From a virus: a stretch of 29,311 nt of DNA. Below are positions 2,138-28,535 of the stretch, piece after piece. Numbering within the stretch: position 1 is the first letter of the stretch; every line of letters begins with the position of its first letter. The notes under the pieces are model-generated. The model was not told the DNA's origin, did no database searches, and saw nothing but the letters and a program-made list of their open reading frames with translations. The translations under genes were made by a program, and so were the position numbers. Location of the stretch: the IMG/VR virus record IMGVR_UViG_3300032082_001293. One strand, written 5' to 3'.

Positions 2138-2347
2138 TTACATTTCCTTTGCAAATGTGACACCCATCTTCTCAGCTTCTTTCTGAGAACGATAAGTGTC
2201 TAATTTTTCGCCGTCAATATAAACGGTGAAACCCTTTGTATTTTTGTGCACCATAACGTGCACCTTACCTACCTTTTTATCGAACACATGTTCGCCAGGT
2301 GGCATTTTTTTCTTAGAGGCTTCTCTAATTTCTTTAAAATTTTTCAT
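2138..2347 (-). CDS. Small basic head/prohead-core protein (gp68 position) with capsid-targeting-like N-terminus
   Basis: 69 aa. N-terminus MKNFKEIRE-A resembles the T4 internal-protein capsid targeting sequence and contains an (I/L)xE gp21 cleavage site. Located immediately upstream of gp21. Confidence 0.65.
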   Translation of the reverse strand: MKNFKEIREASKKKMPPGEHVFDKKVGKVHVMVHKNTKGFTVYIDGEKLDTYRSQKEAEKMGVTFAKEM

Positions 2348-2353
2348 AATTAT

Positions 2354-2361
2354 TATTTATA
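2354..2361 (-). promoter_or_regulatory. T4-type late promoter TATAAATA
   Basis: Plus strand tatttata at 2354-2361, intergenic, 6 nt upstream of the ATG at 2347. Confidence 0.85.
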
Positions 2362-2366
2362 AAAAA

Positions 2367-2708
2367 TTAATTTTCTGGTTCTTCTTCTGTTTCTAAATAC
2401 TCTTCTTCATCTGTCTCAAGAGCATCTAGTTCTGTCTCGAACTCGTCATCACTAATATCGATATCGAGTTCACCATCTTCTTCTTCCGCCTCGGCAGTTT
2501 CCGGTTCGTTATTAAATACCGATTGTGCCAGAGAAACTTTACGCTGGTCTAATGCAGTACTTAAACGGTCACCAATCAGATCATTAAAAGATTTTTCTGC
2601 ATCTAAGTGATTTTCTTTTTCGATAGCTGCCAACAAATCAGCAATACGATTGTTCGGTTCAATCGGGTCTGCTTCTACTTGTGCTACCATTACATCATCA
2701 TCTGCCAT
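2367..2708 (-). CDS. Acidic prohead core protein (gp67-like)
   Basis: 113 aa with a helical segment (AEKSFNDLIGDRLSTALDQRKVSLAQSVF) and a very acidic tail; gp67 syntenic position; SD AGGAG upstream. Confidence 0.7.
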   Translation of the reverse strand: MADDDVMVAQVEADPIEPNNRIADLLAAIEKENHLDAEKSFNDLIGDRLSTALDQRKVSLAQSVFNNEPETAEAEEEDGELDIDISDDEFETELDALETDEEEYLETEEEPEN

Positions 2709-2719
2709 AATTCAAACTC

Positions 2720-3343
2720 CTATTTGAGTGCCAAAAATTCACCTTTCTTCAAGGTGTTATCAACTTTAGTATCTACTACTGTTAAATCACTATCTATGTC
2801 TTTCACTAACTGTCCATATGTACTTGCACCAGTGTTCGGTGTAGTCGATCTAGCCCAAACATACGCAGCAATATTTTCATAATCCGCTTGAGTAATAGCT
2901 GCACTTGCAACTAACTGGTCTACCAAGTTAGAACGTGTCAAGTTAACTGATACACCTTCTGCAAACAAGAATGGGTTACCACCCGCTTCTCTTGTATAAA
3001 TGTTTCCGTTTACCGTAAGAATATACGGATTCTTACTCGCAAATGGTTGTATTCTCCATCCATTCTCTAGGAAGAATGTCGAACCAACGTTCAACGTATC
3101 GTTCAACGGTTCACCACCGATAGCACTAATTGCTTCTAGTTGCCAAGATGGTAATGGATATTCTGGTGAATTTAGTACCCATTCTTTCCATGCAGAATAT
3201 ATGTCAATCTTTACATCAAGTACTGTAACACCTTCGTTTACATATATGATTTTTGCAAAAGCATCAAACGCAACCTTTTGATTAGGAAACAGATTAGGAT
3301 CCCAATTCCAATTATTACCATATTGGTGATGAATAAATGCCAT
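2720..3343 (-). CDS. Hypothetical virion protein; N-domain paralogous to the 647-aa ORF
   Basis: 207 aa. KVAFDAFAKIIYV...DIYSAWKEW...FFLENGW aligns by eye with the N-terminus of 8729..10672. TAATG coupling with the upstream gene. Confidence 0.7.
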   Translation of the reverse strand: MAFIHHQYGNNWNWDPNLFPNQKVAFDAFAKIIYVNEGVTVLDVKIDIYSAWKEWVLNSPEYPLPSWQLEAISAIGGEPLNDTLNVGSTFFLENGWRIQPFASKNPYILTVNGNIYTREAGGNPFLFAEGVSVNLTRSNLVDQLVASAAITQADYENIAAYVWARSTTPNTGASTYGQLVKDIDSDLTVVDTKVDNTLKKGEFLALK

Positions 3344-5826
3344 TACTGACTAAGTTCTTTCCACACAACATTGAATGTGATATAAGTTCGATCAGGTGCA
3401 GATGGTTGTGATCCGCCTGGCTGGAACCCAAGATCGTCTCCACCGATTGGATTGTACATAAACGTCCAAACAGGAGCAGATGGTGGTTCTGCTTCGAGCG
3501 CACCTTCGTCTGCCAAATTGTATGCTGGATTACTCCAACCCGAAGAACTGTATGCATTCAAAGATGTCTTGTAATCTAACGGATATGCATTAACACCGTT
3601 CCTTCTAACAGAGCTCAACGTGGTACTCAACAATGTTGCTCCGGAACTATTCTTAACTGTGAATGCAGTACCACCCGCAAGATCTGAGTCCAACAAGGCA
3701 TTGTTTCTACCTTCAAGGAATATTTGACCCGCATCTGAATCATAGTCGAGAACCAGTGCACTTCCCGCACCAGCAACTTGTGCACTGTCTTGACCACTTG
3801 GCGAAAGATTGTTAATCCCCACTGGAATAGTAGAAGGCGTGAAATTAATAATTCGAGTATTACGGTCATCTTCGAGCAATGACACGCCACCCGCATCACT
3901 GTCGTACAACCAAGCATCGTTACTTGACAAGAAAGACAAATAGAAGTTTTTGTTCAGTAATGTTTCGGGGCCATTGGTATCTGTAATGTCCTTGAACGTA
4001 ATTAATTGTTTGTCTTCGAAGTAGTGAACATTCCCGCCTCGTTCTGGATCTTGACCAACCTGTATTTCAACACGTTGTACGCCACGACTATACCGATCTG
4101 TTTGACCAAAAATATCTTGCAGAGGTTGTTTGCGTCTTGAAAGTCCTACTTCTGTGTTAGGTCTTACTGCGCCCCATTGAATACCGTCAAACAATTTTTC
4201 TAAGTTGACATCAAGTACACCATTCCGAATTGGTGCTCGTATAATTTCTGGGCCGTGACCAATGTGATGCCCTTTGGCATTGTATACAGAACGAATACCA
4301 TCTACGCTGGTAACTGCATCACCATCTCTTTGTATCGTAGCGTAACTGGGTGTTTCCCATTTCTCTCCTCGAAGAATACACTTCAAGAACACACGCAACT
4401 CTCCATCTGGGAAAGTCCCGTCTTCGTTAAAACAATTGAGACGAATTTGTTCTGGTGCATACAGAGAGTGGTTATCTTGTCCGGCGGCAGGAAAACCAGC
4501 AGGGTATTCAGCAACGGGACGCATTGAGGTGAGGTAATAAACACCCTGCGTATATGGAACACCCGCAGTAGTTACTTTGTTATCAATCATGAATACTTCA
4601 TCAATAGACCCCGGCTTTCCCAATTCTTGAACGGGGTCAGTTCCCGCATCTGTCCAAACACCAGCACCTAACGCATAAAAATAATCAGCACTATCTTCTG
4701 TCGGCGCAGACGTTCTCTTAGTTGCCCAACAAATAGGTCTTGCATTCAACCCGATAGCATTTGTTTGCCATCCGATGTCGGTTCGATTACTCATATCCAT
4801 TTCATGACAGATGATTCGTTCACCGTTGATGATAATACCCCAACGAATAGAACCCCCGCCTAAACTTTGATAATCGTAGAAATACTGGTTTGCCGTTGTG
4901 ACATCAAGGGTTACGCCTGATCTGTTCCCGCCGCCACCACTACCGTCCAAACGATCACCATTCCAGTTTGACTGTGGTATGACTGTTTCGGTTTGAGTAC
5001 CGTCAAAAGTTCTACGATGTACGACAGAGAGACCTGACCCAGTGAGACGGAACATAAACCCGTCAGTTGCATCAAATGGACCCCAGTTTCTCACACAGGT
5101 TGCTTTACCAGTATCAGGAATCATGGTTCCCATAATAACGAAGATACCAGAACCAAACGTTAACGGGTGATAAAGGTGTGAGGTGTTTGTTGCAAGGTCA
5201 CCAGAAGCGCCATTGCCAAGATTACCTTCTAAACCAAGACGTATCCATTTCTTACCTGAGTCCCATACAGCAGTGCCAGAACCCAAGAGAGAGTTTGCAA
5301 ATTGTGAGGGCATTGCATCAACGTCGAAAACATAATTAGCAAGAACCCTTGAGTCAGCAATACGCAGCTGACCATATGCCGCAAGTTCTGGTTGTCCTTC
5401 TGAGAATCTAATGTTTGCCGCACCGAAACGGTCAATCTCTAATCCGTACTCTGGGTTGTCGTACCCCATAATGTGGGTAGTTGGTACGTATACGTCATAT
5501 GCTTCTTTTACTTTACAAATGTTTGTACCATCATAAGAAATGGTTTCACCAGCGGCAGGAACTGCATTTTCAAACTTTGCAGTTTTATTATAGTGAACCG
5601 CAAGAATACCAGTACCATCACCTTTATCATAAACGCCGTGTACGTGCACGTCACCACCTTGAAAATTGGTAATGTCGTATCTTTCGCCGATTTTCCAAAC
5701 GTGATCAGTATCTCCACCTTGTGCATCTAATTTCTGCTCGAATTCGATCTCAGCAGTGTGTATCATGTACAGACGATCGCCAGTGCTCTCTGGTGGTATT
5801 CTTGTATATCGTTTTTCACCTGCCAT
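3343..5826 (-). CDS. Large hypothetical virion protein with a predicted beta-rich central domain
   Basis: 827-aa ORF with its own late promoter and SD GGAG. AAYGQLRIA and PQSNWNGDRLDG...LDVTTANQYFYDYQSLGGGSIRWG resemble, from memory, a widespread uncharacterised phage structural-protein family. Confidence 0.7.
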   Translation of the reverse strand: MAGEKRYTRIPPESTGDRLYMIHTAEIEFEQKLDAQGGDTDHVWKIGERYDITNFQGGDVHVHGVYDKGDGTGILAVHYNKTAKFENAVPAAGETISYDGTNICKVKEAYDVYVPTTHIMGYDNPEYGLEIDRFGAANIRFSEGQPELAAYGQLRIADSRVLANYVFDVDAMPSQFANSLLGSGTAVWDSGKKWIRLGLEGNLGNGASGDLATNTSHLYHPLTFGSGIFVIMGTMIPDTGKATCVRNWGPFDATDGFMFRLTGSGLSVVHRRTFDGTQTETVIPQSNWNGDRLDGSGGGGNRSGVTLDVTTANQYFYDYQSLGGGSIRWGIIINGERIICHEMDMSNRTDIGWQTNAIGLNARPICWATKRTSAPTEDSADYFYALGAGVWTDAGTDPVQELGKPGSIDEVFMIDNKVTTAGVPYTQGVYYLTSMRPVAEYPAGFPAAGQDNHSLYAPEQIRLNCFNEDGTFPDGELRVFLKCILRGEKWETPSYATIQRDGDAVTSVDGIRSVYNAKGHHIGHGPEIIRAPIRNGVLDVNLEKLFDGIQWGAVRPNTEVGLSRRKQPLQDIFGQTDRYSRGVQRVEIQVGQDPERGGNVHYFEDKQLITFKDITDTNGPETLLNKNFYLSFLSSNDAWLYDSDAGGVSLLEDDRNTRIINFTPSTIPVGINNLSPSGQDSAQVAGAGSALVLDYDSDAGQIFLEGRNNALLDSDLAGGTAFTVKNSSGATLLSTTLSSVRRNGVNAYPLDYKTSLNAYSSSGWSNPAYNLADEGALEAEPPSAPVWTFMYNPIGGDDLGFQPGGSQPSAPDRTYITFNVVWKELSQ

Positions 5827-5862
5827 TTATTGCTCCAAAAAAATTCTTGCGTTAATACTCTT

Positions 5863-5870
5863 TATTTATA
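5863..5870 (-). promoter_or_regulatory. T4-type late promoter TATAAATA
   Basis: Plus strand tatttata, intergenic between the stop at 5878 and the start at 5826. Confidence 0.85.
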
Positions 5871-5877
5871 AGTTTTT

Positions 5878-7935
5878 TTATGCTGGGTCTCGATAGTTTC
5901 TGTCACCGACCTGCGTCAGTGGTATGTTACCTGTTTCAGCTGAATTGTTTAATGATAGAATAGGGTTTGACCCAGTTCTAAATGCCAAGATATCTATCAC
6001 GTTTCCTACCGGAGTTGAAAACTGAAACCTTGCGTCTACTTTCTCTACTGTGACTGTTTTAGAATTTGCACCAGTAATTGCGGTTCCAAACGCAGAAGTA
6101 AACCCAGAAGAAAGCGTTTTTGTTATTATCGAAGTTGTAGTCGGTGCTGTTGGGTCTGCATCAACCTCAAACTCATCAAACAATTGTAATGATGGGTTGG
6201 TATCATCATCTCGAACTACGATTCGTATCTTGTCACCATCGGCTAATGCTCTAGGATTAGTTGCGTTTGTGTCCTGTAACACGCCAGGGAAATTACTAAA
6301 CACAGCAGAACCTACTGCATCAATCGTAACGAATGTACCACCAGTATTGATTTGATAATAGTTTGTATTGTCTCCAACAAATGTGTCTGCACTTATTCTC
6401 TCAGTTGACGAAACAGTTGTCACACTCGGGGCGGGTAATGAAGTTGCAGAGTATGGGGATGGATTGTCTAGTACACTAATCTCTGTGTTACCTAACAAAC
6501 GAGTTAAAGAAACCGTAGCGGCTTCAACAATCGAAACTGTCCCTGCTCCAAGATTTTGAATTGATGGTACGGTAGAATTGTTAACTATGTTGATTGTTAA
6601 TGTTTGACTTGTTGCTACATTAACTTCTATTGCTGCACTATCTGTTCCAGTCGTACCAACAAAATCTCCAGTAGTCCCCGCAGTATAACCCGAAAGTGTG
6701 TTATTTGAAAAGTTAATTGATTTGGTTTGTGCAACCGACCCAAGACGTATTGCGTGATTAGATCTATTGGGAGTTGAGGTAAAACTACAACCAGTTATTA
6801 GACTTATATCATTTCCTGAATCACTTACGTGCAATGCGTGAGCTGAATCGTGTGTTGTTTCAAAATCACAATTGGTAAAGGTCGCACCATTTTGTCTAAC
6901 AACATCAGCTCTTCGAAAGGTTACATCCTGATTCGTAGAATTAGAACCAAAGTTAAAGAAACCCATATCGGTAAATGAACAACCTTTAAAGTTCGTAGCT
7001 GCGTTATCGTTAACAATTAGATTTCCTCTCGCAGAATCAATTGTAGTACCATACGCACTTCCTTTGGAGAATACGATGTTTCCCCATATAATATTCGAAT
7101 TTGCGTTACTAATTTCAATCAGATTAAATTCAGGATAACAATATCGAGTATCATCAATCAAGATACTCTGATTCGAATCTTCAAATAGAAGCGATGTCGC
7201 GGATGTGCCTAGTTCTAGTCTTCCTTTATAAAGGTATCCTGCCGCAGTTTCTTGAAATATTCCCCAACGGTTAGCTTCCAAGTCGTTTTGTGTAGCCATA
7301 TCATCGAAGGTACCAGCGGGTGCTCCACCAGTAAATGTTATAGACGCTCTTCCCCAACGAACCGCATCTACTGCGTGACCCTGACCACGGTTCAAACCAA
7401 TTCTAGGATTAGGTGTTGCGGTCAGTGCGGTATATGTTCCAGCGGTAGGCGTACCTTCTTGAATTGCCGCTTTAGTCGAAGCCGTTGAGGGGTCAATTGC
7501 GATATTAGTCCAACCACCATATGGATACGTACCGTAATCTCTTCCACCTACTGCCCAATGATAAGAATTACCATCACCAGAACCTATACCTAAAAAATAT
7601 CCAGCCTCAGTGCCAGGCGCGTTCAGGCTTGGAAACGCTTGACCAAGACCTTGGGTTTCATTAAATGGGTTAAGTGCATTGGGAAAAAGAAAGTACCACC
7701 AAAGGAGAAAAACGTCTGTCCCATCTGTGAAACCAGCGGGGTCAGTAACCGCTTGATACATTGCTCCACACGCACCAGATTTGTTCGCCCGAAGCGCTTG
7801 GGAACTACAATCGTTTCCTTGCAGGTATGCTTCTGCATCAACAATTGGCGTCGAACCACCAGTGTCTCGGGCTGGTTCGCCCCAAGCACCATCGGTGTAG
7901 ATATCGTTTAAGTCTGTGGTGGGTGTGTTAGCCAT
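5878..7935 (-). CDS. Hypothetical virion protein with a beta-helix-like middle region and C-terminal RNYRDPA tail
   Basis: 685 aa, T/G/N/S-rich; repeats such as FKGCSFT, FTNCDFE, ITGCSFT and FSNNTLS suggest a right-handed beta-helix; ends DRNYRDPA*. Confidence 0.7.
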   Translation of the reverse strand: MANTPTTDLNDIYTDGAWGEPARDTGGSTPIVDAEAYLQGNDCSSQALRANKSGACGAMYQAVTDPAGFTDGTDVFLLWWYFLFPNALNPFNETQGLGQAFPSLNAPGTEAGYFLGIGSGDGNSYHWAVGGRDYGTYPYGGWTNIAIDPSTASTKAAIQEGTPTAGTYTALTATPNPRIGLNRGQGHAVDAVRWGRASITFTGGAPAGTFDDMATQNDLEANRWGIFQETAAGYLYKGRLELGTSATSLLFEDSNQSILIDDTRYCYPEFNLIEISNANSNIIWGNIVFSKGSAYGTTIDSARGNLIVNDNAATNFKGCSFTDMGFFNFGSNSTNQDVTFRRADVVRQNGATFTNCDFETTHDSAHALHVSDSGNDISLITGCSFTSTPNRSNHAIRLGSVAQTKSINFSNNTLSGYTAGTTGDFVGTTGTDSAAIEVNVATSQTLTINIVNNSTVPSIQNLGAGTVSIVEAATVSLTRLLGNTEISVLDNPSPYSATSLPAPSVTTVSSTERISADTFVGDNTNYYQINTGGTFVTIDAVGSAVFSNFPGVLQDTNATNPRALADGDKIRIVVRDDDTNPSLQLFDEFEVDADPTAPTTTSIITKTLSSGFTSAFGTAITGANSKTVTVEKVDARFQFSTPVGNVIDILAFRTGSNPILSLNNSAETGNIPLTQVGDRNYRDPA

Positions 7936-8398
7936 TGTTCATCTTTACCAATTTTAGAAATTTTTTGAGAAGATCAAATTTTTCCACACCATCACGGGGA
8001 TATAACATAGGTTGTAATGTGTCGTGTTTTCTTAAAACTACACTGTATCCTTGTTGATTAAAAACTTTTATTTGATTCATACCGTGTTCACTTATTGTGA
8101 CTTCTGCTCTCACTGTTCCTATGAACATTTCTTCATCAATTTTTTCAAAAATAATTCCACACTTATCTGGTCGCATAAACAAAGGCGCCTTTTCGTGTTG
8201 TGCATAAGAACAGAAAAAATCTCTACATATTTTCGGACGTTCTTCGTGCACTTTACAACCCACATTTTTCTCGCAATAACCGCACATTTCTCCTGCTGGA
8301 GAATCTATGACAATTGTTTCAATAATATTACCTTGTGTTGCTTTTAATGATTTTACTTCAAGTAATTCGCAACATTCGGTGCATTCACCGCATTCCAT
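7928..8398 (-). CDS. YkgJ/FliB-type CxxCxxCC cysteine-cluster (Fe-S/Zn) protein
   Basis: Begins MECGECTECC and contains CGYCEKNVGCKVHEERPKICRDFFC, the typical two-part motif of the PF03692 family. Confidence 0.85.
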   Translation of the reverse strand: MECGECTECCELLEVKSLKATQGNIIETIVIDSPAGEMCGYCEKNVGCKVHEERPKICRDFFCSYAQHEKAPLFMRPDKCGIIFEKIDEEMFIGTVRAEVTISEHGMNQIKVFNQQGYSVVLRKHDTLQPMLYPRDGVEKFDLLKKFLKLVKMNNG

Positions 8399-8405
8399 AA
8401 TATGC

Positions 8406-8672
8406 TCAATCGTTTAAATGACTTTCAATTTCCCCTACAAGACCCTCGTCCATTTCTTTTTTAAATGATAACACATCATCCAAATTGAACCACCATGTTG
8501 GTTCAGTTGTTTCAACATTTTCATTAAATGAAATTGTACCATCTTCATTGTAGTTTAATTCTTCATCACCAACAAGTTGAATCGGAAGCCGTTTCTCATT
8601 GTTCGCAATATAAAGAACCTCATCGGCACTTCGATTAAGTATTTCACTGGCTTGTTCTAAAGATATTTTCAT
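8406..8672 (-). CDS. Excisionase/MerR-like helix-turn-helix protein (HTH_17-like)
   Basis: ATG at 8672 with SD GAGGA is preferred over TTG at 8684. ISLEQASEILNRSADEVLYIANNEKRLP...WWFNLDDVLSFK fits the winged HTH_17 pattern, with an acidic insertion in the wing. Confidence 0.6.
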   Translation of the reverse strand: MKISLEQASEILNRSADEVLYIANNEKRLPIQLVGDEELNYNEDGTISFNENVETTEPTWWFNLDDVLSFKKEMDEGLVGEIESHLND

Positions 8673-8682
8673 AATATTCCTC

Positions 8683-8715
8683 AAAAAAAAAATTAAGGGG
8701 CCCCGAAGGACCCCT
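8683..8715 (-). terminator. Rho-independent terminator with cUUCGg tetraloop
   Basis: Minus strand AGGGGTCC-TTCG-GGGCCCCT followed by TAA and T10, 13 nt after the stop of the 647-aa gene. Confidence 0.92.
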
Positions 8716-8728
8716 CGTGTTCATTTTA

Positions 8729-10672
8729 TTATGCTGGGTCAGAGTAGTTACGTTCTACAGCAGATACTACAGAGATACTATTTGTATTCTGTTCTGTAAT
8801 CGTTGCAGTCTGTTCCACCCAAGTACCATTGTTCAATCCAATTGCACGAACGTTAACATCGAAAGGTTGTCCACCTTCTCTGTCTTTTTGTGAATTGTTA
8901 TCAAACGCATAAGATACCACAAAACGGTTGTTTGTTAAACTACCAGATGCAAGGTCCGAAACGGCCGCCTGTGCAACATTATTTTCTGCTGTTGCACCAG
9001 CAGAGTCAAGTAACAATGCGCCCGGAGAGTTGATTGGGTGAGTGTAAATTGCATCGCCCGCTGTATTCAAAGTCTCATTAATTGGTGCAACCGTATCATC
9101 AAGTGTAATCGCCGCAAAGTTACTGGAATCGACTACAGAAGTTACTTTCCAAATAACGTTGTGATTAGCACCAGTACCACTAGCTTTATTTAAGCGGAAA
9201 TATGCATTAGCATCAGTTAAGGGGTCTAGACCCTCTGGGTTCTGAACAGTAGTGGTTGTCAATAAAGGTGTGAACGATACCGCACCATTTAAAGTAATGT
9301 TAGCACTGTCAAGATACGCATTAGTTGCTGACGGACCTACGTCAGCAAGTTGAATCGACGTTCCGATTTCACCACCAACAGCGTAATCACGTGTGTGGTC
9401 ATAGTATACAAACACTTTAGCGTTAGCACCATCATCCAAAATATCTTGAGAGAAACCAATACTAATTGCAGTAGAGAACGGGAATGATTGCAACGACCCA
9501 CCAGTATTGAACAACTGGGTGTTGTTGATATCATCAGCATTAACATTAGTAATCGCAACACCAGTTCTGGTACCGTTTTGGTCGATATTAGTTACTGGTT
9601 TAGTTGTTAATGTATCACCAACAAAGGCCAACAATTCATCTGCCAGTTTACCACTCTTAACTGTACCTGCAGCAAATTCAATATCAGAATCTTGACGCAA
9701 GTTATATTGAACCCAAGCATATAATTCTTGGTTAGTTAAAGGTGTTGTTCCATCAACGCCTGATGCAGATTTAATCTTAACACCAAAATTGAAAGGACCA
9801 CCCAACAAGTCTTCTGAATAACCGAAAGTGTTAGATGCTTCATCTACCGCAAGATATTCAATGGTAGAACCGTCACCTGTAGTCGAGTACTTTTGACCAT
9901 TTCCTTTTGCAGCTAAAATAGTTGCGTCACTTACACCACCAGCACCAGTAATTTTAAGGTCGTTACCTTCAACCAACGGGAATCGTTGAGTGTTATAAGG
10001 AAGAGTTGTACCAGCTGACAAACCGATATCTACGGTGTCAGTTTGGTCGTATGTCTTACCTTCTTGACGAATGAACAAACGAAGAATATCTCCACGAAAA
10101 TCAAGTTCTGCCGTTTGGTTTGCATCACTGTCTTTATAAGTCAGTACTGCTTGGTTAACTTCGCCGGGGAAGTTGTAGTCAAATGGACCAGCCTTTGATG
10201 TACCATTTGCAGAATCAAAAAATGCGTAATAAACGAAATCTTGGTCACCAGCACCGTCTTGGTTCTGATCACCATCGATATTACCTAGAGAAATTGTACC
10301 AATATACTGACGTTTCAATGTGGTATCATCAGTACTAAATTCTCTCCATCCAGCAGTACGAATCAAAGAACGCGATGAATCGTCAGCAGGTGACCATCCG
10401 AAACGCCATTCGAACTGTTCTGGTGTAATAGCGACGAGTGGGAAAGGATAAGCAATCAACTGTTTACTGTTTGGGTCATCCTTCCATTCTTGTTTAAGAA
10501 AGCTGTAAAGTGCCTGAAGCGTCACCCCCGTTTCATCAAGAACGGGTCCCTTTGGCGCTGCACTGTTGTTACGAATCTTAATTGTTCGTAATGCAGTGTC
10601 GATGTGAATGTTCTTACCGGCGGAATCTCCACCAGTATCAAACAACCCATCTGGATCTACAATTGTTGGCAT
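8729..10672 (-). CDS. Hypothetical, probably high-copy virion protein (candidate filament major subunit)
   Basis: 647 aa with its own late promoter, SD AGGAG and terminator; N-domain shared with the 207-aa ORF; C-terminal ERNYSDPA* shared with the 685-aa ORF. Confidence 0.72.
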   Translation of the reverse strand: MPTIVDPDGLFDTGGDSAGKNIHIDTALRTIKIRNNSAAPKGPVLDETGVTLQALYSFLKQEWKDDPNSKQLIAYPFPLVAITPEQFEWRFGWSPADDSSRSLIRTAGWREFSTDDTTLKRQYIGTISLGNIDGDQNQDGAGDQDFVYYAFFDSANGTSKAGPFDYNFPGEVNQAVLTYKDSDANQTAELDFRGDILRLFIRQEGKTYDQTDTVDIGLSAGTTLPYNTQRFPLVEGNDLKITGAGGVSDATILAAKGNGQKYSTTGDGSTIEYLAVDEASNTFGYSEDLLGGPFNFGVKIKSASGVDGTTPLTNQELYAWVQYNLRQDSDIEFAAGTVKSGKLADELLAFVGDTLTTKPVTNIDQNGTRTGVAITNVNADDINNTQLFNTGGSLQSFPFSTAISIGFSQDILDDGANAKVFVYYDHTRDYAVGGEIGTSIQLADVGPSATNAYLDSANITLNGAVSFTPLLTTTTVQNPEGLDPLTDANAYFRLNKASGTGANHNVIWKVTSVVDSSNFAAITLDDTVAPINETLNTAGDAIYTHPINSPGALLLDSAGATAENNVAQAAVSDLASGSLTNNRFVVSYAFDNNSQKDREGGQPFDVNVRAIGLNNGTWVEQTATITEQNTNSISVVSAVERNYSDPA

Positions 10673-10733
10673 TTCTATATCTCCTACGTAGAATAATTTT
10701 TATTACATGTAATTTAAGGTTTGTGCACCCTGT

Positions 10734-10741
10734 TATTTATA
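10734..10741 (-). promoter_or_regulatory. T4-type late promoter TATAAATA
   Basis: Plus strand tatttata immediately after the collagen gene stop (10743). Confidence 0.85.
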
Positions 10742-10742
10742 A

Positions 10743-11828
10743 TTATGAATATGTAAACGTGATTCTATCATCCCATATTTTATCAAATTCAGCAGTTCCA
10801 TCTGCCCATAAAATATTGTAGTCATTACCAATTTCTTCGATACGTTTGATTCGCCATTTAGGTTGATCCGTATTAGTACCAGGCAATGCCTCACCTATGT
10901 AATAAAACGTCCCTTCCTGATCTATTAATTTGTTATACTGCACTTCTAATTCCGCTTTTAATCTGTCCAATACATTTACGAAAGAATCCGCAATAAATTT
11001 TTTCTTGGTGGGGTCGTAGATTAATATCGCATCATCTACTACGCCCTTCAATGCAGCTTTATCAACATCTGCATTATCAACCAATTTGTAAGAACCACCA
11101 CCTCCGATAGTGCTTAGAGATTGATTGATTCTATCAATCTGTTTCTGAATATTGTTATCAACTCTTGATGCATTTTCTGTCAGTCGTTGATTAAAATTCT
11201 TTAATGCTTCTTCGAACTCATTTCTGTAATCAGGTGCAGGAGTTCCGGGCTCACCTTTCTCTCCACGTTCACCTTTTTCACCTTGAGGGCCAGTTAATCC
11301 TCTCTCGCCTCGTTCGCCTCGTTCACCCTTTGCTCCTGCAACTCCTTGAGGGCCAGCAGGTCCGATTGCTCCGACAGGACCGGCGGGACCGATTGGGCCA
11401 GGTTCTCCTTTCTCACCACGAGCTCCAGTATCGCCTGTATCACCCTTCTCACCACGTTCTCCTTGGGGGCCAGTTAATCCCTGTAGGCCAGTGTCACCCT
11501 TTTCTCCTTGGAAACCTCTCTCGCCTTGTAATCCTTGTTCGCCTCTCTCGCCCTTTTCTCCACGAAGTCCAGTATCTCCCTTGTCTCCCCTGAGACCTTG
11601 AGCTCCTCGATCTCCTTTTTCGCCACGGTCACCTTTGATACCTTGGTCACCTTTATCTCCCTTAACTCCTTTATCGCCTTTTGGGCCCTGTGGACCTTCA
11701 AACCCTTGCGGTCCTTGAAGTCCTTGAAGGTCTTCGAAAACATTAAATATTTTGTCTTCTAACTTTTCAATTTCTTTCTGCGTGTGTACTATGGAGAACG
11801 CAGTAGAAATTTTATCAATCTTGTTCAT
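10743..11828 (-). CDS. Collagen triple-helix repeat fibre protein
   Basis: 361 aa; 54 uninterrupted Gly-X-Y triplets flanked by predicted coiled coils; small C-terminal domain (YYIGEALPG...KWRIKRI...FDKIWDDR); overlaps the gp20 stop by 14 nt. Confidence 0.9.
11238..11723 (-). repeat. (Gly-X-Y)54 collagen-coding repeat
   Basis: Residues 36-197 of the 361-aa ORF (GLQ...GTP), manual count. Confidence 0.9.
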
Positions 11829-13485
11829 TGATTCGTGCCATATACCTTGTCATTTCTTCAAGTAATTCATCTTCTTGTGAAGGTATATATTTTTCTTTTT
11901 TCTCCTCAGATTCTTGAGGGGGTTCTTCATCAGAACTAGGTTCTGCCTTGGGTTCAGGCTTTGGTTTTTCTTCATCGTCACCACCACCCATTCCAGGCAA
12001 CTCAACATCACCGTCTTCACCTTCACTATCTATTTGTTTCTGCATGTCCTCAATATCTTCTTCAGACATTCTCAAAACATTTTTCCATATCCACTCTTTA
12101 CTTACATAGTTACCCACGAATTGGTCTACTTCATTCAGAAGACCAAACCGTTCACGCATAATTTCTGTTTCTTTGAGCTCAGTGAAGTGATTGTCTTTAA
12201 CGTAATCAACGATGATTTCGTTTCGCCATTCTTCCCAATCCTGTTCTGTGATAATACCTTTTAACAGAAGTTGTTTACGAAGAATGCCTAAGAATACCTG
12301 AGAAAACTTTCTACGAAGACGGTCAACAAACTTTTGTAGTTTCACTTCGTCTCGTGAAATCTCAGTAGAACGACCAAGAGAGAACTGAGCTTCCTGTTCC
12401 AAACGATTGACAGGAACATTCAATGCACGATATAATCTCTTTTGGAAATAAATGATATCATCAATCTGACCAAGGTTGTCACCGCCAGGCAGAGTAGAAA
12501 TCTCTGTACCACGACCACCTTCTCGACGGGGTAACCAGAAGTCTTCAAGCATCGACATATGCTTGCGGTCATCTTTGAGTTCACCAGTGTTCGCATCGTA
12601 TACCAGTTTGTTACGATACTTTGCCATAATATCTTTCATATACTGTTCAGACTTACCACGGGGCAAGTTACCCACGTCAATATAAAAGATACGTCTTTCT
12701 GGTGCACGTGCGAGACGATAGATGACTAGAGAGTCTTCCATCATTCTTAACTGATTGATTGGTTTTAGTGCCTTGTGTAGATGCGACACAACTTTCTTTT
12801 TTGTCTCATCAAGTAAACCAGATGTGACATAACTAATAGAATCTGTAGAAAGTTTAACCGCTGATGATTGTTGTCCAGGCTTCTCTTCGTAAATATAAAA
12901 CTCGTCTACTGACTCAACAATCTTTGCGCCCGTTGCAGGGTCTTTTTTGTATTTTACATTTTTAACTTTACGAATCTTTGCAGCATCGATGTGTCTAATT
13001 TCTTGAATACCTGCTTTGAGATTCGATTCGTTCACAAGTAGGTGATGATAGATTCTACCATCAACATACCACGAACGGAAAATATCGTGTCCATTGTCAT
13101 TGAACTTCAACATAGACACAATATTTTTGAATTCTTCTTGAATTTGTTCTTTAATCTTATCGGGGGCTTCTACATCTTCTAGTGATAGTTCAAGGTTAGA
13201 TGTTAGTTCAGAAGCAGTAATCGATTCGTTGACAATTTCTTCAATCGCCATATCTACTTCTGGATGTGTTGCAACTCCACGATAACGTAAGATAAGTTGG
13301 TGATTGTCTTTAGAATTATCACCATCCATATTGATATACTGACCATAGTGACCAGCAGCTGTAGTGACATACCCAGCACCATCGTCATCCGTAGGCGGAA
13401 CAATGGAAGGAAGTTTTTCTTTCTTCTGTGCTTGTGTTCTGCGTAACTCAAAACCAAATAATTTAAAGATGCTATCGTCTGCCAT
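11815..13485 (-). CDS. gp20: Portal vertex protein
   Basis: [54 protein letters not shown] and [22 protein letters not shown] motifs. ATG at 13485 preferred over TTG at 13497. Confidence 0.98.
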
Positions 13486-13495
13486 ATCTGTGTCC

Positions 13496-13530
13496 AAAAA
13501 ATAAAATAAAGGGACCTCCGGAGAGGTCCC
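13496..13530 (-). terminator. Rho-independent terminator after gp19 (cUCCGg tetraloop)
   Basis: Minus strand GGGACCTC-TCCG-GAGGTCCC followed by TTTATTTTATTTTT. Confidence 0.9.
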
Positions 13531-26536: not shown

Positions 26537-27778
26537 TTAAAGACCGAACTGTTTTCTGTGTGCGATAAAGTTTTGTTTTACTTCTGCTTCTGAGAGAGCT
26601 CTGCTGTAAATTCTAAAAATAGGAATATCGTCTATACCATAATAAGCCCCAGATGGACTTCCCCCACTAAAATAAGTTCCAATCGGAAAAACGCCAGACT
26701 GCGTTACAGTTGTTTCTGTTTTAGAGAACGTCGATTTCACTCCATTTTTATACAGACTTACTACGCCCGCATTTATTGTGACACATATGTGTTGATAAAT
26801 GTCATAATCAGCAGTGGGTCGAGTTCCAGTAAATCCATCATTCCAACCAAAGCCACCCCAACCTACATCCCAATTACTACCAGTAATCCCAATATAAAAT
26901 CTTTCGCCGGATACATTTTGATGCCCAACGGGTATTCTTGTTGTATCAGTATCGTCTATTGGTCTAATCCAAAACTCTACCGATGTGCTGACTGAACCTG
27001 TACCAAACGTTGTTGCAGCATTAGGTAGCGTTATATATTGACCATTACCAAATCTAAATGTGCCATCACTATTATACGTAAGAGAATTAGCTGTTACGGT
27101 TTCATTACCTGTCAAATCAATAATCGCTTGGGTATTACTTCTCGTCCCATCAATAAACGGAGTGGCGAAACTACTAGCTTCCAATTGAGGGTCAAGAATT
27201 AATACACCAGAACCAGGCGTTCCAGCATACGCTACTAAACGAGTCGCAGAAGCGGAATTGATAACTGCATATGCCATTCTTCCTGCGCCAGGAGACGTAC
27301 TAGTTTCTGTATAGGTGCAACGATACCATCCAGAATATCGTCCACTTTTTATTAACTTAATTGTTGCCTTTGAAGCACCCGTACCCGAGATACTACCTTC
27401 TCCGGTCAAAGTGAAGTTAGCATATAAACTTACAGGAAATCCAGTTGAAGGTGATATTTGAAAATGTTCTCTCTCAACGGGCTTGACATAAATCGATTGT
27501 GTGTATTCAGTATCGTCTGTTAACGTGGTGTCTTTTAAAACATAATGTCCCACGTTAGCCGAAGTTTCTGTCATTTTAACTTCTGGAAGCGGGTCGTAAT
27601 ATGTAAATTCTATTGATGATGTGGTCCAAGTGTCGTATTGATTTACATATCCAGCAAACAAATTCGTCGTTGGTTTTCCTTTAAACGAACGAATCGTATT
27701 GGTCATATCGTAGTAAAAAATTAATGAACTATCATTAACGATTCTTTTACCAACCTGAGTTATTTTTGTCGTAGCCAT
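26537..27778 (-). CDS. LamG/concanavalin A-like domain protein with an inserted carbohydrate-binding-like module
   Basis: SVEFWIRP, YQHICVT, LYKNG and IFRIYSRALSEAEVKQNF motifs; insert spans YTQSIYVKP...GWYRC...PQLEASSFATPF. ATG at 27778 preferred. Confidence 0.85.
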   Translation of the reverse strand: MATTKITQVGKRIVNDSSLIFYYDMTNTIRSFKGKPTTNLFAGYVNQYDTWTTSSIEFTYYDPLPEVKMTETSANVGHYVLKDTTLTDDTEYTQSIYVKPVEREHFQISPSTGFPVSLYANFTLTGEGSISGTGASKATIKLIKSGRYSGWYRCTYTETSTSPGAGRMAYAVINSASATRLVAYAGTPGSGVLILDPQLEASSFATPFIDGTRSNTQAIIDLTGNETVTANSLTYNSDGTFRFGNGQYITLPNAATTFGTGSVSTSVEFWIRPIDDTDTTRIPVGHQNVSGERFYIGITGSNWDVGWGGFGWNDGFTGTRPTADYDIYQHICVTINAGVVSLYKNGVKSTFSKTETTVTQSGVFPIGTYFSGGSPSGAYYGIDDIPIFRIYSRALSEAEVKQNFIAHRKQFGL

Positions 27779-27805
27779 TATTGACAATACCTAAAGTTTA
27801 TACTA

Positions 27806-27813
27806 TATTTATT
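27806..27813 (-). promoter_or_regulatory. Late promoter AATAAATA overlapping the upstream stop codon
   Basis: Plus strand tatttatt; one mismatch to consensus. Confidence 0.65.
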
Positions 27814-28535
27814 CACAAACCAAACCTTGCTCGATGTGCTAAAAAGTTTTTACGAACCTCTGATTCTGACAATCCTTTATTATAAATTGAGAGTGGACCC
27901 ATCTTGCCATCAAAAAATCCTGTAACACGGCCACTTGAGTTTCCTATGGTTATGTCTCCATAGGTACCCCCTAAGATGTAATAATCATCATTACCATCAA
28001 AACTTACAAGACCAGTATCTAATTCACCATTCATATAAACGTTTGTGAAGGTATTGTGTTGTTTACACCAAACCACATGATACCACTGATTATAAGAAAA
28101 TGTACTTCCATAGAAATTATTGGTACTTCTAGCGCCAAAATTCATTCGAGGGTTTCCACCAGAAACCCCAACCTGCATACCTACGCCAACAGAAGTCGTA
28201 GAACCTATAATACTATCTGCACTTGTGGTAGTACCTTGAGATGTGCGAACGTATATCCAAGCTTCTAAAGTGTAGTCGCTTTGTCCTGTAGAACTTCCAC
28301 TGGTTAAGGTATTCGAGGTTTGATTAATATAAGAATTGTTCATATCAATCAGGTCATTAACGCCATCGAAATCAAACGTGCCGTCACTGATAGTAACGCC
28401 AGAGATTGTTCCGACTCGCCCACTTGCGACATCAGTAATACTAGAACCAGTCCCAGGATAGGACCTGAGACTGGCTGGGTCGATTCGCATTATCAAACCA
28501 TCGGTTGTAATCCTAGGCCCGTAACTAACTCCCAT
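27813..28535 (-). CDS. LamG/concanavalin A-like domain protein
   Basis: SYPGTG, FDFDGVND, YTLEAWIY, WYHVV, VYMNG and IYNKGLSESEVRKNF motifs. Confidence 0.9.
   Translation of the reverse strand: MGVSYGPRITTDGLIMRIDPASLRSYPGTGSSITDVASGRVGTISGVTISDGTFDFDGVNDLIDMNNSYINQTSNTLTSGSSTGQSDYTLEAWIYVRTSQGTTTSADSIIGSTTSVGVGMQVGVSGGNPRMNFGARSTNNFYGSTFSYNQWYHVVWCKQHNTFTNVYMNGELDTGLVSFDGNDDYYILGGTYGDITIGNSSGRVTGFFDGKMGPLSIYNKGLSESEVRKNFLAHRARFGL

What the first reader, a model, noticed from the sequence alone, without database searches (positions are those of the whole stretch)
2720..11828. Seven-gene, ~9-kb module inserted between portal and prohead-core genes: candidate virion appendage system
Established: T4-like order is 20-67-68-21-22-23. 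Seen: gp20 and the gp67-like gene are separated by genes for a collagen protein (361 aa), a 647-aa protein, an HTH protein, a CxxCxxCC protein, and 685-, 827- and 207-aa proteins. All are co-oriented and wired into late expression through two TATAAATA promoters, one terminator and overlapping stop/start codons. Inference: this is a coherent accessory system (structural subunits, metal-cluster enzyme, regulator) that builds a head- or portal-associated appendage, not a random set of ORFans.
Basis: partly seen in the sequence, partly recalled or inferred. Interest (0 to 1): 0.85.

Follow-up and report, generated by a model that had tools for sequence, protein, structure and literature searches.

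The report
Syn5-horn-like fibre cassette in T4-like phage
An uncultivated marine T4-like phage carries, between its portal and head-core genes, a conserved but dispensable 9-kb set of late virion-fibre genes whose core matches the proteins of the odd 'horn' of cyanophage Syn5, so such extra appendages may be common on ocean phages.

Summary
Seven co-oriented genes (2720-11828, minus strand) lie between portal g20 and the gp67/68-like genes. The block has two TATAAATA late promoters, one terminator and three start/stop overlaps.

The block is not a set of ORFans. Dozens of IMG/VR T4-like contigs keep the same order, with portal identity down to 48%. Of the 80 nearest portal relatives, 46 carry it, 30 lack it at exactly this junction and 4 cannot be scored. 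Carriers and non-carriers are interleaved on the portal tree.

The new point is homology to cyanopodovirus Syn5:
- p647 matches gp53 (2.4e-41).
- p207 matches gp55 (hhalign 99.4%).
- p685 belongs to the gp54 family, through a shared C-terminal ...DRNYxxP tail and jackhmmer links.

From my memory of Raytcheva 2014, gp53 and gp54 form the Syn5 horn. I could verify only the paper's title.

T4-like versions add a collagen-stalk protein translationally coupled to the portal gene, and an 827-aa protein with a ConA-like lectin fold (Z 16.8).

The 'HTH regulator' is unconfirmed. The CxxCxxCC protein occurs in only a few cassettes.

Best reading: a swappable, accessory, sugar-binding virion appendage, probably on the head side. 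Its position on the virion is not shown.

The scan noted the same block in another genome (e1-5974872).

The parts
11815..13497 (-). g20 portal gene (upstream flank); its last 14 nt overlap the start of p361
   Evidence: PF07230 E 6.5e-170, phrog_213; overlap read from the sequence
10743..11828 (-). p361: short N-terminal segment, 54 G-X-Y collagen triplets (residues 36-197, about 46 nm if a triple helix), and a conserved C-terminal globular domain ending ...WDDRxTFTYS
   Evidence: PF01391 7e-30; triplet count; C-domain alignment A5 with 19 invariant columns; weak match to the C-terminus of Rctr197k gp177 (hhalign 90%, 1.8e-6); its start lies 10 or 7 nt before the portal end in nearly all carrier contigs
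10734..10741 (-). T4-type late promoter TATAAATA before p647
8729..10672 (-). p647: full-length homologue of Syn5 gp53 (from memory, a horn protein). Conserved N-domain (IxDPDxL ... LYSFLKxxW), variable middle, conserved C-terminal tail ...SxVERNYSDPA. It has its own promoter and terminator.
   Evidence: tblastn 4e-36 against the phage collection; phmmer 2.4e-41; termini across 60 homologues; alignment A4
8695..8716 (-). intrinsic terminator (9-bp stem with 6 GC pairs, then a T-run) after p647
8406..8672 (-). p92 (88 aa from the ATG at 8672): small conserved protein of unknown role; its resemblance to an HTH is unconfirmed
   Evidence: present in 12 of 21 intervals; alignment A6; no Pfam or PDB profile match
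7928..8398 (-). p156: YkgJ/FliB-type CxxCxxCC Zn/Fe-binding protein; its stop overlaps the p685 start by 8 nt; an optional cassette member
   Evidence: PF03692 7e-4, 20.7 bits against a 23-bit cut-off; phrog_9155 9e-11; in 2 of 21 intervals, next to the gp54-like gene in the intervals where both were seen
5878..7935 (-). p685: member of the Syn5 gp54 family, i.e. modular proteins that share an N-terminal TDL motif and the C-terminal tail ...PLTQVGDRNYRDPA, with swapped central parts
   Evidence: hhalign of A3 against Syn5 gp54: 93.8%, E 1.8e-7 over the last 40 residues; jackhmmer from gp54 recovers p685-family members such as L029 (47% identical to p685 residues 1-472), L054 and L052
5863..5870 (-). 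T4-type late promoter TATAAATA before p827
3343..5826 (-). p827: conserved N-terminal roughly 470 residues, including a ConA-like/GH16-like jelly roll (about 147-400), a variable C-terminal half, and a conserved end ...WKELSQ
   Evidence: AF2 model pLDDT 78, pTM 0.71; VIA Z 16.8, rmsd 3.7, 201 aligned to GH16 enzymes and lectins; Foldseek hits to lectin-like domains; phrog_1645 'virion structural protein' 8e-30; no ExDxxE motif
2720..3343 (-). p207: homologue of Syn5 gp55. Conserved N-terminal domain (FDGPNKxIxVNxGVT..DIYSAWKEW..FFLENGWRI) and a variable C-terminus. Its start overlaps the p827 stop by 1 nt.
   Evidence: hhalign of A1 against gp55: 99.4%, E 8.4e-22, 129 columns; phmmer 7e-11; 2649 50%-identity clusters in 1.84 billion proteins, with the domain N-terminal in all but one of the 150 listed; C-terminal extensions up to 2358 aa (L133)
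2138..2708 (-). downstream flank: gp67-like s113 (2367-2708), late promoter (2354-2361) and s69 (2138-2347). In phages without the cassette these directly follow the portal gene.
   Evidence: phrog_1064 6e-5; non-carrier contigs have s113 at +84 to +160 after the portal gene

Best explanation
The block is a late-transcribed, dispensable and horizontally shuffled cassette for an accessory fibre appendage on the virion surface.

Core: three proteins are homologous to gp53, gp54 and gp55 of the T7-like cyanophage Syn5. gp53 and gp54 make that phage's 'horn' on the capsid vertex opposite the tail. gp55 was assigned to capsid knobs.
- p647 corresponds to gp53. It has its own promoter and terminator, so I infer it is the most abundant subunit, perhaps the shaft.
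- p685 corresponds to gp54.
- p207 corresponds to gp55.

Additions in T4-like phages:
- a collagen-stalk protein (p361) whose translation is coupled to that of the portal;
- an 827-aa protein with a lectin-like jelly roll (p827) whose gene is coupled to that of p207.

Inferred assembly and function: p647 and p685 share a C-terminal tail ([ED]RN[YF]xxP). p207 has a conserved N-terminal anchor domain and a free, variable C-terminus. This pattern suggests a hub with exchangeable arms. I infer that the product is a head- or neck-side appendage that binds carbohydrate and gives weak, reversible adhesion to cells or particles. It would act beside the phage's separate tail-fibre set, not in place of it.

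Shown here: gene structure, promoters, synteny, presence/absence among relatives, the homologies and the lectin fold.

Inferred: virion incorporation, position on the head side, subunit roles and sugar binding.
For: Coherence:
- The order g20-p361-p647-(p92)-(p156)-p685-p827-p207-g67-like is kept in dozens of IMG/VR contigs, with portal identity from 98% down to 48%.

Late expression:
- Six of six TATAAATA sites are intergenic and on the coding strand; two lie inside the block.
- There is a terminator after p647 and there are coupled start/stop overlaps.

Homology to the Syn5 cluster gp53-gp54-gp55, in the same relative order:
-.
- In the Syn5 GenBank record gp53, gp54 and gp58 are annotated 'structural protein'.
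[quoted passage not shown] That the two proteins are gp53 and gp54, located by immunogold, is from my memory of that paper.
- The horn is added after the tail (PMC4238041).

Dispensability:
- 46 carriers, 30 non-carriers and 4 unscorable among the 80 nearest portal relatives, with the difference at exactly this junction.
- Supported branches of the portal tree force at least 4-7 gains or losses.
- The complete genome of C48C1 has no gp53- or gp55-like gene.

Fibre or adhesin character:
- 54 collagen triplets in p361.
- ConA/GH16-like fold in p827, whose domain family is annotated 'virion structural protein' in cyanomyoviruses.

Separate tail-fibre genes exist upstream of g13: p1601 with gp37-type PHROG hits and p125 matching a tail-fibre assembly family.
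Against: - There is no virion proteomics or imaging for any T4-like carrier, and no cultured T4-like phage in the 50,697-record collection has the cassette.
- In L139 the core cassette lies just upstream of g13, after a protein whose C-terminus matches the tail-fibre-assembly-like p125. In L135 and L137 it lies among large structural genes. Genomic position therefore does not tie it to the head.
- A conserved N-terminus with a variable C-terminus (p207, p827) is also the hallmark of tail receptor-binding proteins.
- Podovirus Panino has the triad, but its description mentions no horn.
- The gp54-p685 link rests on the C-terminal 40 residues plus transitive hits, not on a direct full-length match.
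- The identity of the Syn5 horn proteins could not be re-read here, because the paper is not held.
Confidence: 0.55

Rival explanations
1. The cassette is an extra tail- or baseplate-side set of fibres or tailspikes, i.e. a host-range module. The gp55-like N-domain and the p827 N-terminus would anchor to the tail, and the variable C-termini and the p685 centre would bind or cut surface polysaccharide.
For: - p207 and p827 have conserved N-termini and variable C-termini. The gp55-like domain is N-terminal in all but one of the 150 listed hits among 2649 clusters, with extensions to over 900 aa and 2358 aa in L133.
- In L139 the cassette sits directly upstream of g13, where this window keeps its own tail-fibre genes.
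- Frequent gain, loss and part-swapping are typical of receptor-binding cassettes.
- Panino, a podovirus with the triad, makes halo plaques and is said to carry two depolymerases.
- p827 has a glycan-binding fold.
Against: - From memory of Raytcheva 2014: Syn5 gp53 and gp54 were located on the horn, not the tail, and antibodies against them did not neutralise infection.
- Syn5 and this phage both have separate, recognisable tail-fibre genes.
- None of the seven proteins matches a T4 baseplate or fibre family, apart from non-specific collagen-repeat hits.
- 30 of the 80 nearest portal relatives do without the cassette.
Confidence: 0.3
2. The small conserved member p207 (gp55-like) is a capsid decoration or cement 'knob' that stabilises hexamers, as proposed for Syn5 gp55. 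The rest of the cassette would be head-surface decoration, not one appendage.
For: - Gipson et al. 2014 (PMC4102127) assign Syn5 gp55 to two knob densities per hexamer that bind the major-capsid E-loop.
- p207 is a clear gp55 homologue.
- The cassette lies among head genes.
Against: - The Syn5 assignment rested on secondary-structure prediction and density shape, not on labelling or a built model.
- Long C-terminal extensions on the same N-domain and tight coupling to an 827-aa lectin protein fit an anchor-plus-arm protein better than a cement protein.
- No homologue of the partner knob protein gp58 was found (phmmer 0 hits).
- The p207 model is only moderate (pLDDT 66).
Confidence: 0.1
3. The seven genes are an accidental pile of unrelated mobile ORFs in a variable spot and have no common function.
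For: - The g20|g21 junction is a variable spot. L181 holds a different cassette there.
- p92 and p156 come and go.
Against: - Four families co-occur in 21 of 21 intervals in fixed order across deep portal divergence.
- A similar gene set recurs in unrelated phage backbones: Syn5, Panino, Rctr197k, L135 and L139.
- Gene starts and stops are coupled.
Confidence: 0.03

Closest known systems
Horn gene cluster of cyanopodovirus Syn5 (gp53, gp54; neighbouring gp55) - Pope 2007; Raytcheva 2014 J Virol 88:2047; Dai 2013; Gipson 2014 (PMC4102127)
   Same: - p647 is a full-length homologue of gp53, p207 of gp55, and p685 shares the gp54 C-terminal module.
- The relative gene order is the same.
- The genes are late or structural.
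- No Pfam, PHROG or PDB relatives were found for p647, p685 or p207, and no PHROG relative for gp53-gp55.
   Different: - The host virus is a T4-like myovirus, not a T7-like podovirus.
- The cassette lies between the portal and prohead-core genes, not between the tail-fibre and terminase genes.
- It carries four further genes: collagen stalk p361, lectin-fold p827, p92 and p156.
- The proteins are 1.1 to 1.5 times longer.
- No horn has been seen on any carrier.
- No gp58 homologue was found.
Cyanomyovirus 'virion structural protein' (phrog_1645; e.g. S-RIM12 gp133, S-CAM9 gp158) between g16 and g17
   Same: It is homologous to the jelly-roll part of p827 (40% identity over 119 aa; 8e-30 to the PHROG). 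It has a similar C-terminal W-x-E ending.
   Different: - The cyanophage proteins are stand-alone, about 430 aa, and sit at another locus.
- No gp53-, gp54- or gp55-like gene was found next to them in the stretches examined.
- p827 has extra N- and C-terminal domains.
T4 fibritin (wac) whiskers and collar, and the T4 head decoration protein Hoc
   Same: Analogy only. All are dispensable, late, surface-exposed fibres or decorations on the head or neck that aid adsorption or adhesion without being the primary receptor binder. Like fibritin, p361 is a predicted trimeric fibre with a small C-terminal domain.
   Different: - No sequence relation appeared in the Pfam or PHROG scans.
- p361 has a collagen triple helix where fibritin has a coiled coil.
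- The cassette holds seven genes, not one.
Head filament of Caulobacter phage phiCbK (PMC3556154)
   Same: A single filament on the capsid pole opposite the tail, used for first contact with the host (the flagellum). It is the best-studied functional precedent for a head-borne adhesion filament.
   Different: - tblastn of p647 and p207 against the phage collection listed no Caulobacter phage.
- phiCbK is a siphovirus with a prolate head.
- Its function in flagellum binding is known from experiment, unlike here.
GH16 glycoside hydrolases and ConA-like/LamG lectins
   Same: p827 residues about 147-400 adopt this beta-jelly roll: Z 16.8 to 12 against 50 entries, about 200 aligned residues, rmsd about 3-3.7.
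   Different: Sequence identity is 4-10%. The GH16 catalytic ExDxxE motif is absent and no acidic pair is conserved in that place in alignment A2. The fold more likely binds glycan than cuts it.

Membership tests
Syn5-type horn cassette (gp53/gp54/gp55) | gp53 homologue | tested here: met
   p647 against Syn5 gp53: tblastn 4e-36, covering both the N- and C-terminal parts; phmmer 2.4e-41; same N-terminal IxDPDxL and C-terminal LERNYSNP ends
Syn5-type horn cassette (gp53/gp54/gp55) | gp54 homologue | tested here: inconclusive
   Only the last 40 residues align directly (hhalign 93.8%, 1.8e-7). jackhmmer from gp54 reaches many p685-family members but not the window protein itself. The central regions differ.
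Syn5-type horn cassette (gp53/gp54/gp55) | gp55 homologue adjacent downstream | tested here: met
   p207 against gp55: hhalign 99.4%, 8.4e-22 over 129 columns. It is the last gene of the cassette, as gp55 follows gp54 in Syn5.
Syn5-type horn cassette (gp53/gp54/gp55) | proteins form a slender projection on the capsid vertex opposite the tail | not testable with these tools
Syn5-type horn cassette (gp53/gp54/gp55) | proteins present in purified virions | not testable with these tools
   Only indirect evidence: late promoters and the 'structural protein' annotation of the Syn5 homologues.
T4 tail fibres and baseplate (gp34-37, gp12, gp9-11) | sequence-profile match to a tail-fibre or baseplate family outside low-complexity repeats | tested here: not met
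   p647, p685 and p207 have no Pfam or PHROG hit. p827 matches only 'virion structural protein'. The tail-fibre PHROG hits of p361 lie in its collagen repeats. The true fibre-type hits are in p1601 and p125, outside the block.
GH16 glycoside hydrolase | catalytic ExDxxE (or ExDxE) strand motif | tested here: not met
   A regex search finds no such motif in p827. The fold itself is matched.
ConA-like lectin/glucanase fold | curved two-sheet beta-jelly roll of about 200-250 residues | tested here: met
   VIA Z 16.8-12 over model residues 147-400, where pLDDT is mostly 80-93; Foldseek E 2e-7 to 5e-6
PF03692 YkgJ/FliB CxxCxxCC proteins | CxxCxxCC motif and a score above the Pfam gathering threshold | tested here: inconclusive
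   The motif C3-x2-C6-x2-C9-C10 and later Cys pairs are present. The score is 20.7 bits against a 23-bit cut-off, E 7e-4. phrog_9155 scores 9e-11.
Helix-turn-helix DNA-binding regulators | profile match to an HTH family or structure | tested here: inconclusive
   p92 has no Pfam HTH hit at E up to 5. The profile of 16 homologues finds no HTH chain in the PDB. The N-terminal 35 residues resemble an excisionase-type HTH only by eye.
Collagen-like phage fibre proteins | long uninterrupted G-X-Y run | tested here: met
   54 triplets, residues 36-197; PF01391 7e-30

The most novel reading that the evidence does not exclude
A large, abundant group of marine T4-like myoviruses is 'horned'. These phages would carry a branched head- or neck-side adhesion organelle built from Syn5-horn homologues on a collagen stalk set beside the portal. 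The gp55-like N-domain (over 2,600 protein clusters, no known family) would be a general socket that receives the shared [ED]RN[YF]xxP C-terminal tails of exchangeable gp53/gp54-type arms. If so, the cassette is a portable plug-in appendage that can be fitted to podovirus and myovirus capsids alike.
Probability: 0.25. Interest if true: 0.8.

Novelty: new variant of a known kind. Interest (0 to 1): 0.62.

Why it matters
In the papers I could read, the Syn5 horn is described as unusual or unique, and none assigns it a function.

This result shows that its genes belong to a widespread, mobile cassette:
- It is present in 46 of the 80 nearest relatives of this T4-like phage.
- It occurs in deep-branching T4-like lineages, in flavobacterial podovirus Panino and in the 197-kb virus Rctr197k.
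- The gp55-like domain alone defines more than 2,600 clusters at 50% identity.

Three things follow if the reading is right:
- It gives a testable hypothesis: a sugar-binding accessory appendage that aids encounter or reversible adhesion in dilute seawater.
- It supplies natural controls, because closely related phages exist with and without the cassette.
- It provides a reason to revisit the assignment of Syn5 gp55 to capsid knobs.

It also assigns candidate roles to several large 'hypothetical' families that are common in marine viromes.

Tried and rejected
**Similarity and profile searches with no useful result**
- megablast of the whole block against 50,697 phage records: no match.
- Profile searches of the p827, p207, p647, p685, p361-C and p92 families against PDB sequences: nothing meaningful.
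- Pfam scans of all 29 p685-family and 35 p647-family members: no fibre or beta-helix family. My impression that the p685 centre is a beta-helix is therefore unverified and is not used as evidence.
- NCBIfam: nothing.
- PHROGs for Syn5 gp52-55 and gp58 and for the Panino and Rctr197k partners: nothing.
- ESM Atlas for p647 and p685: best scores 0.75 and 0.77, uninformative.

**Folds**
- p207 model (pLDDT 66): Foldseek best E 1.2, VIA best Z 2.5, so no fold assignment.
- GH16 enzyme reading of p827: rejected, because the catalytic motif is absent.

**Proposed relationships that did not reach significance**
- p647 and p685 as paralogues: only the C-terminal 46 columns align (hhalign E 6.8e-4, probability 27%). 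BLASTP was not significant.
- p207 N-domain against p647 N-domain (shared LYSxxKxxW and FxFxxGW motifs): hhalign E 0.02-0.2. Suggestive only.
- p361 C-domain against Syn5 gp52 or Panino CDS0101: not significant.
- Covariation of the Y/F position in the two tail motifs within genomes: none seen.

**Other**
- Scan of bacterial genomes with the gp55-like profile: five MAG contigs, no host clue.
- Literature: Raytcheva 2014, Pope 2007 and Dai 2013 are not held. No paper was found that describes horn-protein homologues outside Syn5.
Subunit contacts, expression and the NCBI record behind P0071/P0072 could therefore not be examined.

Full report
**What is there**

The window is the last 29 kb of a 93.7-kb contig, and all of its genes lie on the minus strand. 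The backbone is colinear with T4-like marine phages of the Kyanoviridae: g13, g14, g15, g16, g17, g18, g19 and g20, then later g21, g22 and g23. The closest isolate is phage C48C1, with a portal 69% identical.

Seven ORFs lie between the portal gene (11815-13497) and a gp67-like gene (2367-2708; phrog_1064). They encode 361, 647, 92, 156, 685, 827 and 207 aa.

- TATAAATA occurs six times against 1.8 expected. Every copy is on the coding strand and intergenic. Two lie in the block, before p647 and before p827.
- A strong hairpin with a T-run follows p647.
- Start/stop overlaps are g20/p361 14 nt, p156/p685 8 nt and p827/p207 1 nt.

In C48C1, Melnitz, S-RIM12 and S-CAM9 the portal gene is followed directly by one to three small genes and g21. 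The 9 kb is therefore an insertion relative to every cultured relative examined.

**Is it a coherent unit?**

Scans of IMG/VR with p827 and p207 returned 139 loci. Local tblastn shows the order g20-p361-p647-(p92)-(p156)-p685-p827-p207-(s113-s69)-g21-g22-g23 again and again.

In 21 non-redundant complete g20-g21 intervals (9.0-12.1 kb; portal identity 92% to 48%):
- p361, p647, p827 and p207 homologues are present in all 21;
- p685 is present in 14 by tblastn, and a gp54/p685-type protein is found in nearly all by profile search;
- p92 is present in 12;
- p156 is present in 2.

Those loci were fetched with two of the cassette's own proteins, so I also fetched the 80 nearest portal relatives without regard to the cassette. 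Of these, 46 carry the cassette, mostly with p361 starting 10 or 7 nt before the portal stop. Another 30 have s113 or s69 directly after the portal gene, and 4 are too short to score.

On a portal tree, carriers and non-carriers are interleaved. Supported branches force at least 4-7 changes. A deep clade with portals only about 50% identical to this one also carries the cassette, while the isolates sampled next to it (Melnitz, S-RIM12, S-CAM9) and C48C1 lack it. The cassette is therefore old or mobile, repeatedly lost or gained at one precise junction, and dispensable.

One lineage (L181, L184) has a different cassette at this spot. Its first protein keeps the p361-type N-terminus.

**What the proteins are**

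- **p361.** A short N-terminal segment, 54 uninterrupted G-X-Y triplets (about 46 nm as a triple helix) and a highly conserved 140-residue C-terminal domain.
- **p827.** It models well (pLDDT 78, pTM 0.71).
  - Residues about 147-400 form a ConA-like/GH16-like jelly roll. VIA gives Z 16.8, rmsd 3.7 and 201 aligned residues, and 50 entries score Z 12 or more. Foldseek gives E 2e-7 to lectin-like domains.
  - The GH16 ExDxxE motif is absent, so a lectin role is more likely than an enzyme role.
  - This domain is homologous to the cyanomyovirus 'virion structural protein' phrog_1645, which lies between g16 and g17 in S-RIM12 and S-CAM9.
  - BFVD holds structural relatives in many uncultured phages, haloarchaeal tailed viruses and giant viruses.
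- **p207.** The model is moderate (pLDDT 66) and matches no known fold.
- **p156.** It carries a literal CxxCxxCC motif and later Cys pairs, but scores just under the Pfam threshold.
- **p92.** It has no HTH profile support.

**The key link: Syn5**

tblastn of p647 against the phage collection hit Synechococcus podovirus Syn5 gp53 and its relative S-TIP28. It also hit Maribacter podovirus Panino and the 197-kb virus Rctr197k.

| Window protein | Syn5 protein | Evidence |
|---|---|---|
| p647 | gp53 | Both begin MA(L/I)I(V/T)DPDxL and end ...LERNYSNP; phmmer 2.4e-41 |
| p685 family | gp54 | gp54 ends ...LPITQVLDRQYNNPV, the C-terminal signature of the whole p685 family. hhalign of the family against gp54: 93.8%, E 1.8e-7 over the last 40 residues. 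jackhmmer from gp54 recovers many p685-family members, including L029, which is 47% identical to p685 over residues 1-472 |
| p207 | gp55 | hhalign 99.4%, E 8.4e-22; phmmer 7e-11 |

The Syn5 genes 53-54-55 and the window's p647-p685-p207 are therefore the same three families in the same order.

What the literature says about these Syn5 proteins:
- In the Syn5 record, gp53, gp54 and gp58 are 'structural proteins'.
[quoted passage not shown] I could not open it.
- From memory of that paper: immunogold labelling placed gp53 and gp54 in the horn on the vertex opposite the tail, placed gp58 on the capsid lattice, and the antibodies did not neutralise infection.
- Cryo-ET showed that the horn is added after the tail (PMC4238041).
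- Gipson et al. assigned gp55 and gp58 to capsid knobs by secondary-structure and density arguments only.

**Wider distribution and architecture**

The same core recurs on unrelated backbones:
- Panino: CDS0100 is gp53-like, CDS0099 and CDS0098 are gp54-like, and CDS0097 is gp55-like.
- Rctr197k: gene 176 holds the p827-type jelly roll, 177 has a p361-type C-terminus, 178 is gp53-like, 179 is gp54-like and 180 is gp55-like.
- L135 and L137: the order is gp54-like, gp53-like, gp55-like.
- L139, a T4-like contig: gp54-like, gp53-like, p827-like and gp55-like genes lie directly upstream of g13.

The gp55-like domain has 2,649 representatives at 50% identity among 1.84 billion proteins. In all but one of the 150 best hits listed it sits at the N-terminus, on proteins of 136 to over 900 aa. 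In L133 it heads a protein of 2,358 aa.

The p647 family has at least 458 homologues at E of 1e-5 or below. The 120 listed carry no Pfam domain and no name other than 'hypothetical protein'.

Recurrent conserved ends stand out:
- gp53- and gp54-type proteins share only a C-terminal stretch of about 45 residues ending [ED]RN[YF]xxP.
- p827 proteins begin MAGEKRYTRIPPESTGDR and end W(K/R)ExxQ, with the p207 start overlapping the p827 stop by one base in many loci.

**How it most likely works**

Shown:
- a late-promoter-driven, coupled gene set;
- conserved co-inheritance;
- dispensability among close relatives;
- homology to proteins of a capsid appendage;
- a collagen fibre and a lectin fold.

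Inferred:
- The products assemble after head and tail formation into an accessory surface appendage.
- p647 has its own promoter and terminator, so it is probably the most abundant subunit.
- p647 and p685 dock through their common C-terminal tail onto a shared partner. p207, the always co-occurring small protein with a conserved N-domain, is the obvious candidate.
- p827 supplies a glycan-binding head.
- p361, whose translation is tied to the portal, supplies a stalk.
- The function would be weak, reversible adhesion to cell-surface or particle polysaccharide. It would raise encounter rates without being needed for infection. That fits the many natural cassette-minus relatives and the remembered failure of anti-gp53/54 sera to neutralise Syn5.

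I put 0.55 on this package. I am about 0.9 sure of the homology and of the cassette's coherence, about 0.8 sure that it is a virion-surface structure, and about 0.45-0.5 sure that it sits on the head or neck side.

**Rivals**

1. *An extra tail-side fibre or tailspike set (0.3).*
   - For: the conserved-N, variable-C design, the L139 and L135 gene contexts, and Panino's halo plaques.
   - Against: the Syn5 localisation and the presence of a separate tail-fibre set (p1601, p125).
2. *p207 as a capsid cement knob, as proposed for gp55 (0.1).*
   - Against: the assignment had a weak basis, the same N-domain carries long C-terminal fusions, and no gp58 homologue is present.
3. *An incidental pile of ORFs (0.03).* The synteny contradicts this.

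**Comparison with the known, and novelty**

The nearest known system is the Syn5 horn cluster.

Membership tests gave:
- gp53 homologue: met.
- gp55 homologue: met.
- gp54 homologue: only partly met.
- The defining physical feature, a projection on the vertex opposite the tail: cannot be tested here.

Differences from Syn5:
- myovirus backbone;
- different locus;
- four additional genes;
- larger proteins.

I found no paper describing horn-protein homologues outside Syn5. I therefore rate it a new variant of a known kind.

The scan's own notes record the same kind of block in another genome (e1-5974872). Its gene sizes (374, 903, 96, 641, 822 and 201 aa) match locus L013, which I analysed.

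**Limits**

- There is no cultured carrier, no proteomics and no imaging.
- The identity of the Syn5 horn proteins rests on my memory of a paper whose title alone I could verify.

Noticed in passing
G000:C1:13315-14874 (minus strand), about 50 kb before the window: A second protein in the same contig matches the p827-family profile over its jelly-roll part (profile positions 266-403, E 7e-18). The two systems may share a lectin-type module.
   Followed up: no
window 26537-29242: Three consecutive genes (p235, p240, p416) are paralogues that share C-terminal ends and all hit phrog_8510 'virion structural protein'. Relatives of p240 and p235 also lie beside the gp53/54/55 cassette in L135 and L137.
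   Followed up: partly
L181:2793-4200 and 4258-6003 (IMGVR_UViG_3300022198_003212); also L184: An alternative cassette at the same portal junction. It has a 459-aa protein with a p361-type N-terminus (MSKIKPSITTAFSIAYTK...) but a different body, followed by a 582-aa protein. This suggests that the p361 N-terminus is the conserved anchor and the rest is exchangeable.
   Followed up: partly
window 3343-5826 (p827 N-terminus), 8729-8760 and 5878-5910 (C-termini of p647 and p685): The invariant p827 N-terminus (MAGEKRYTRIPPES) resembles the shared C-terminal tail of the p647 and p685 families ([ED]RN[YF]xxP). The resemblance is unexplained and may be chance.
   Followed up: no
window 13511-13530: A perfect 8-bp GC-rich hairpin between g19 and g20 scores as a terminator on both strands. 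It would separate tail-tube and portal transcription.
   Followed up: no
L135:17369-20323 and L137:14348-16195: The large terminase of these distant phages is 984 aa. It matches p541 in two blocks separated by about 430 residues, so it may hold an intein or an inserted domain.
   Followed up: no
window 8672-8684: The ORF caller starts p92 at the TTG at 8684. An ATG at 8672 with a GAGGA seven bases upstream is the likelier start, giving 88 aa.
   Followed up: yes
P0071, P0072: Two p647 homologues (52% identical, 622 aa) come from NCBI records, one on a 144,259-bp contig. This may be a complete genome of a carrier phage that is not in the phage collection searched.
   Followed up: no
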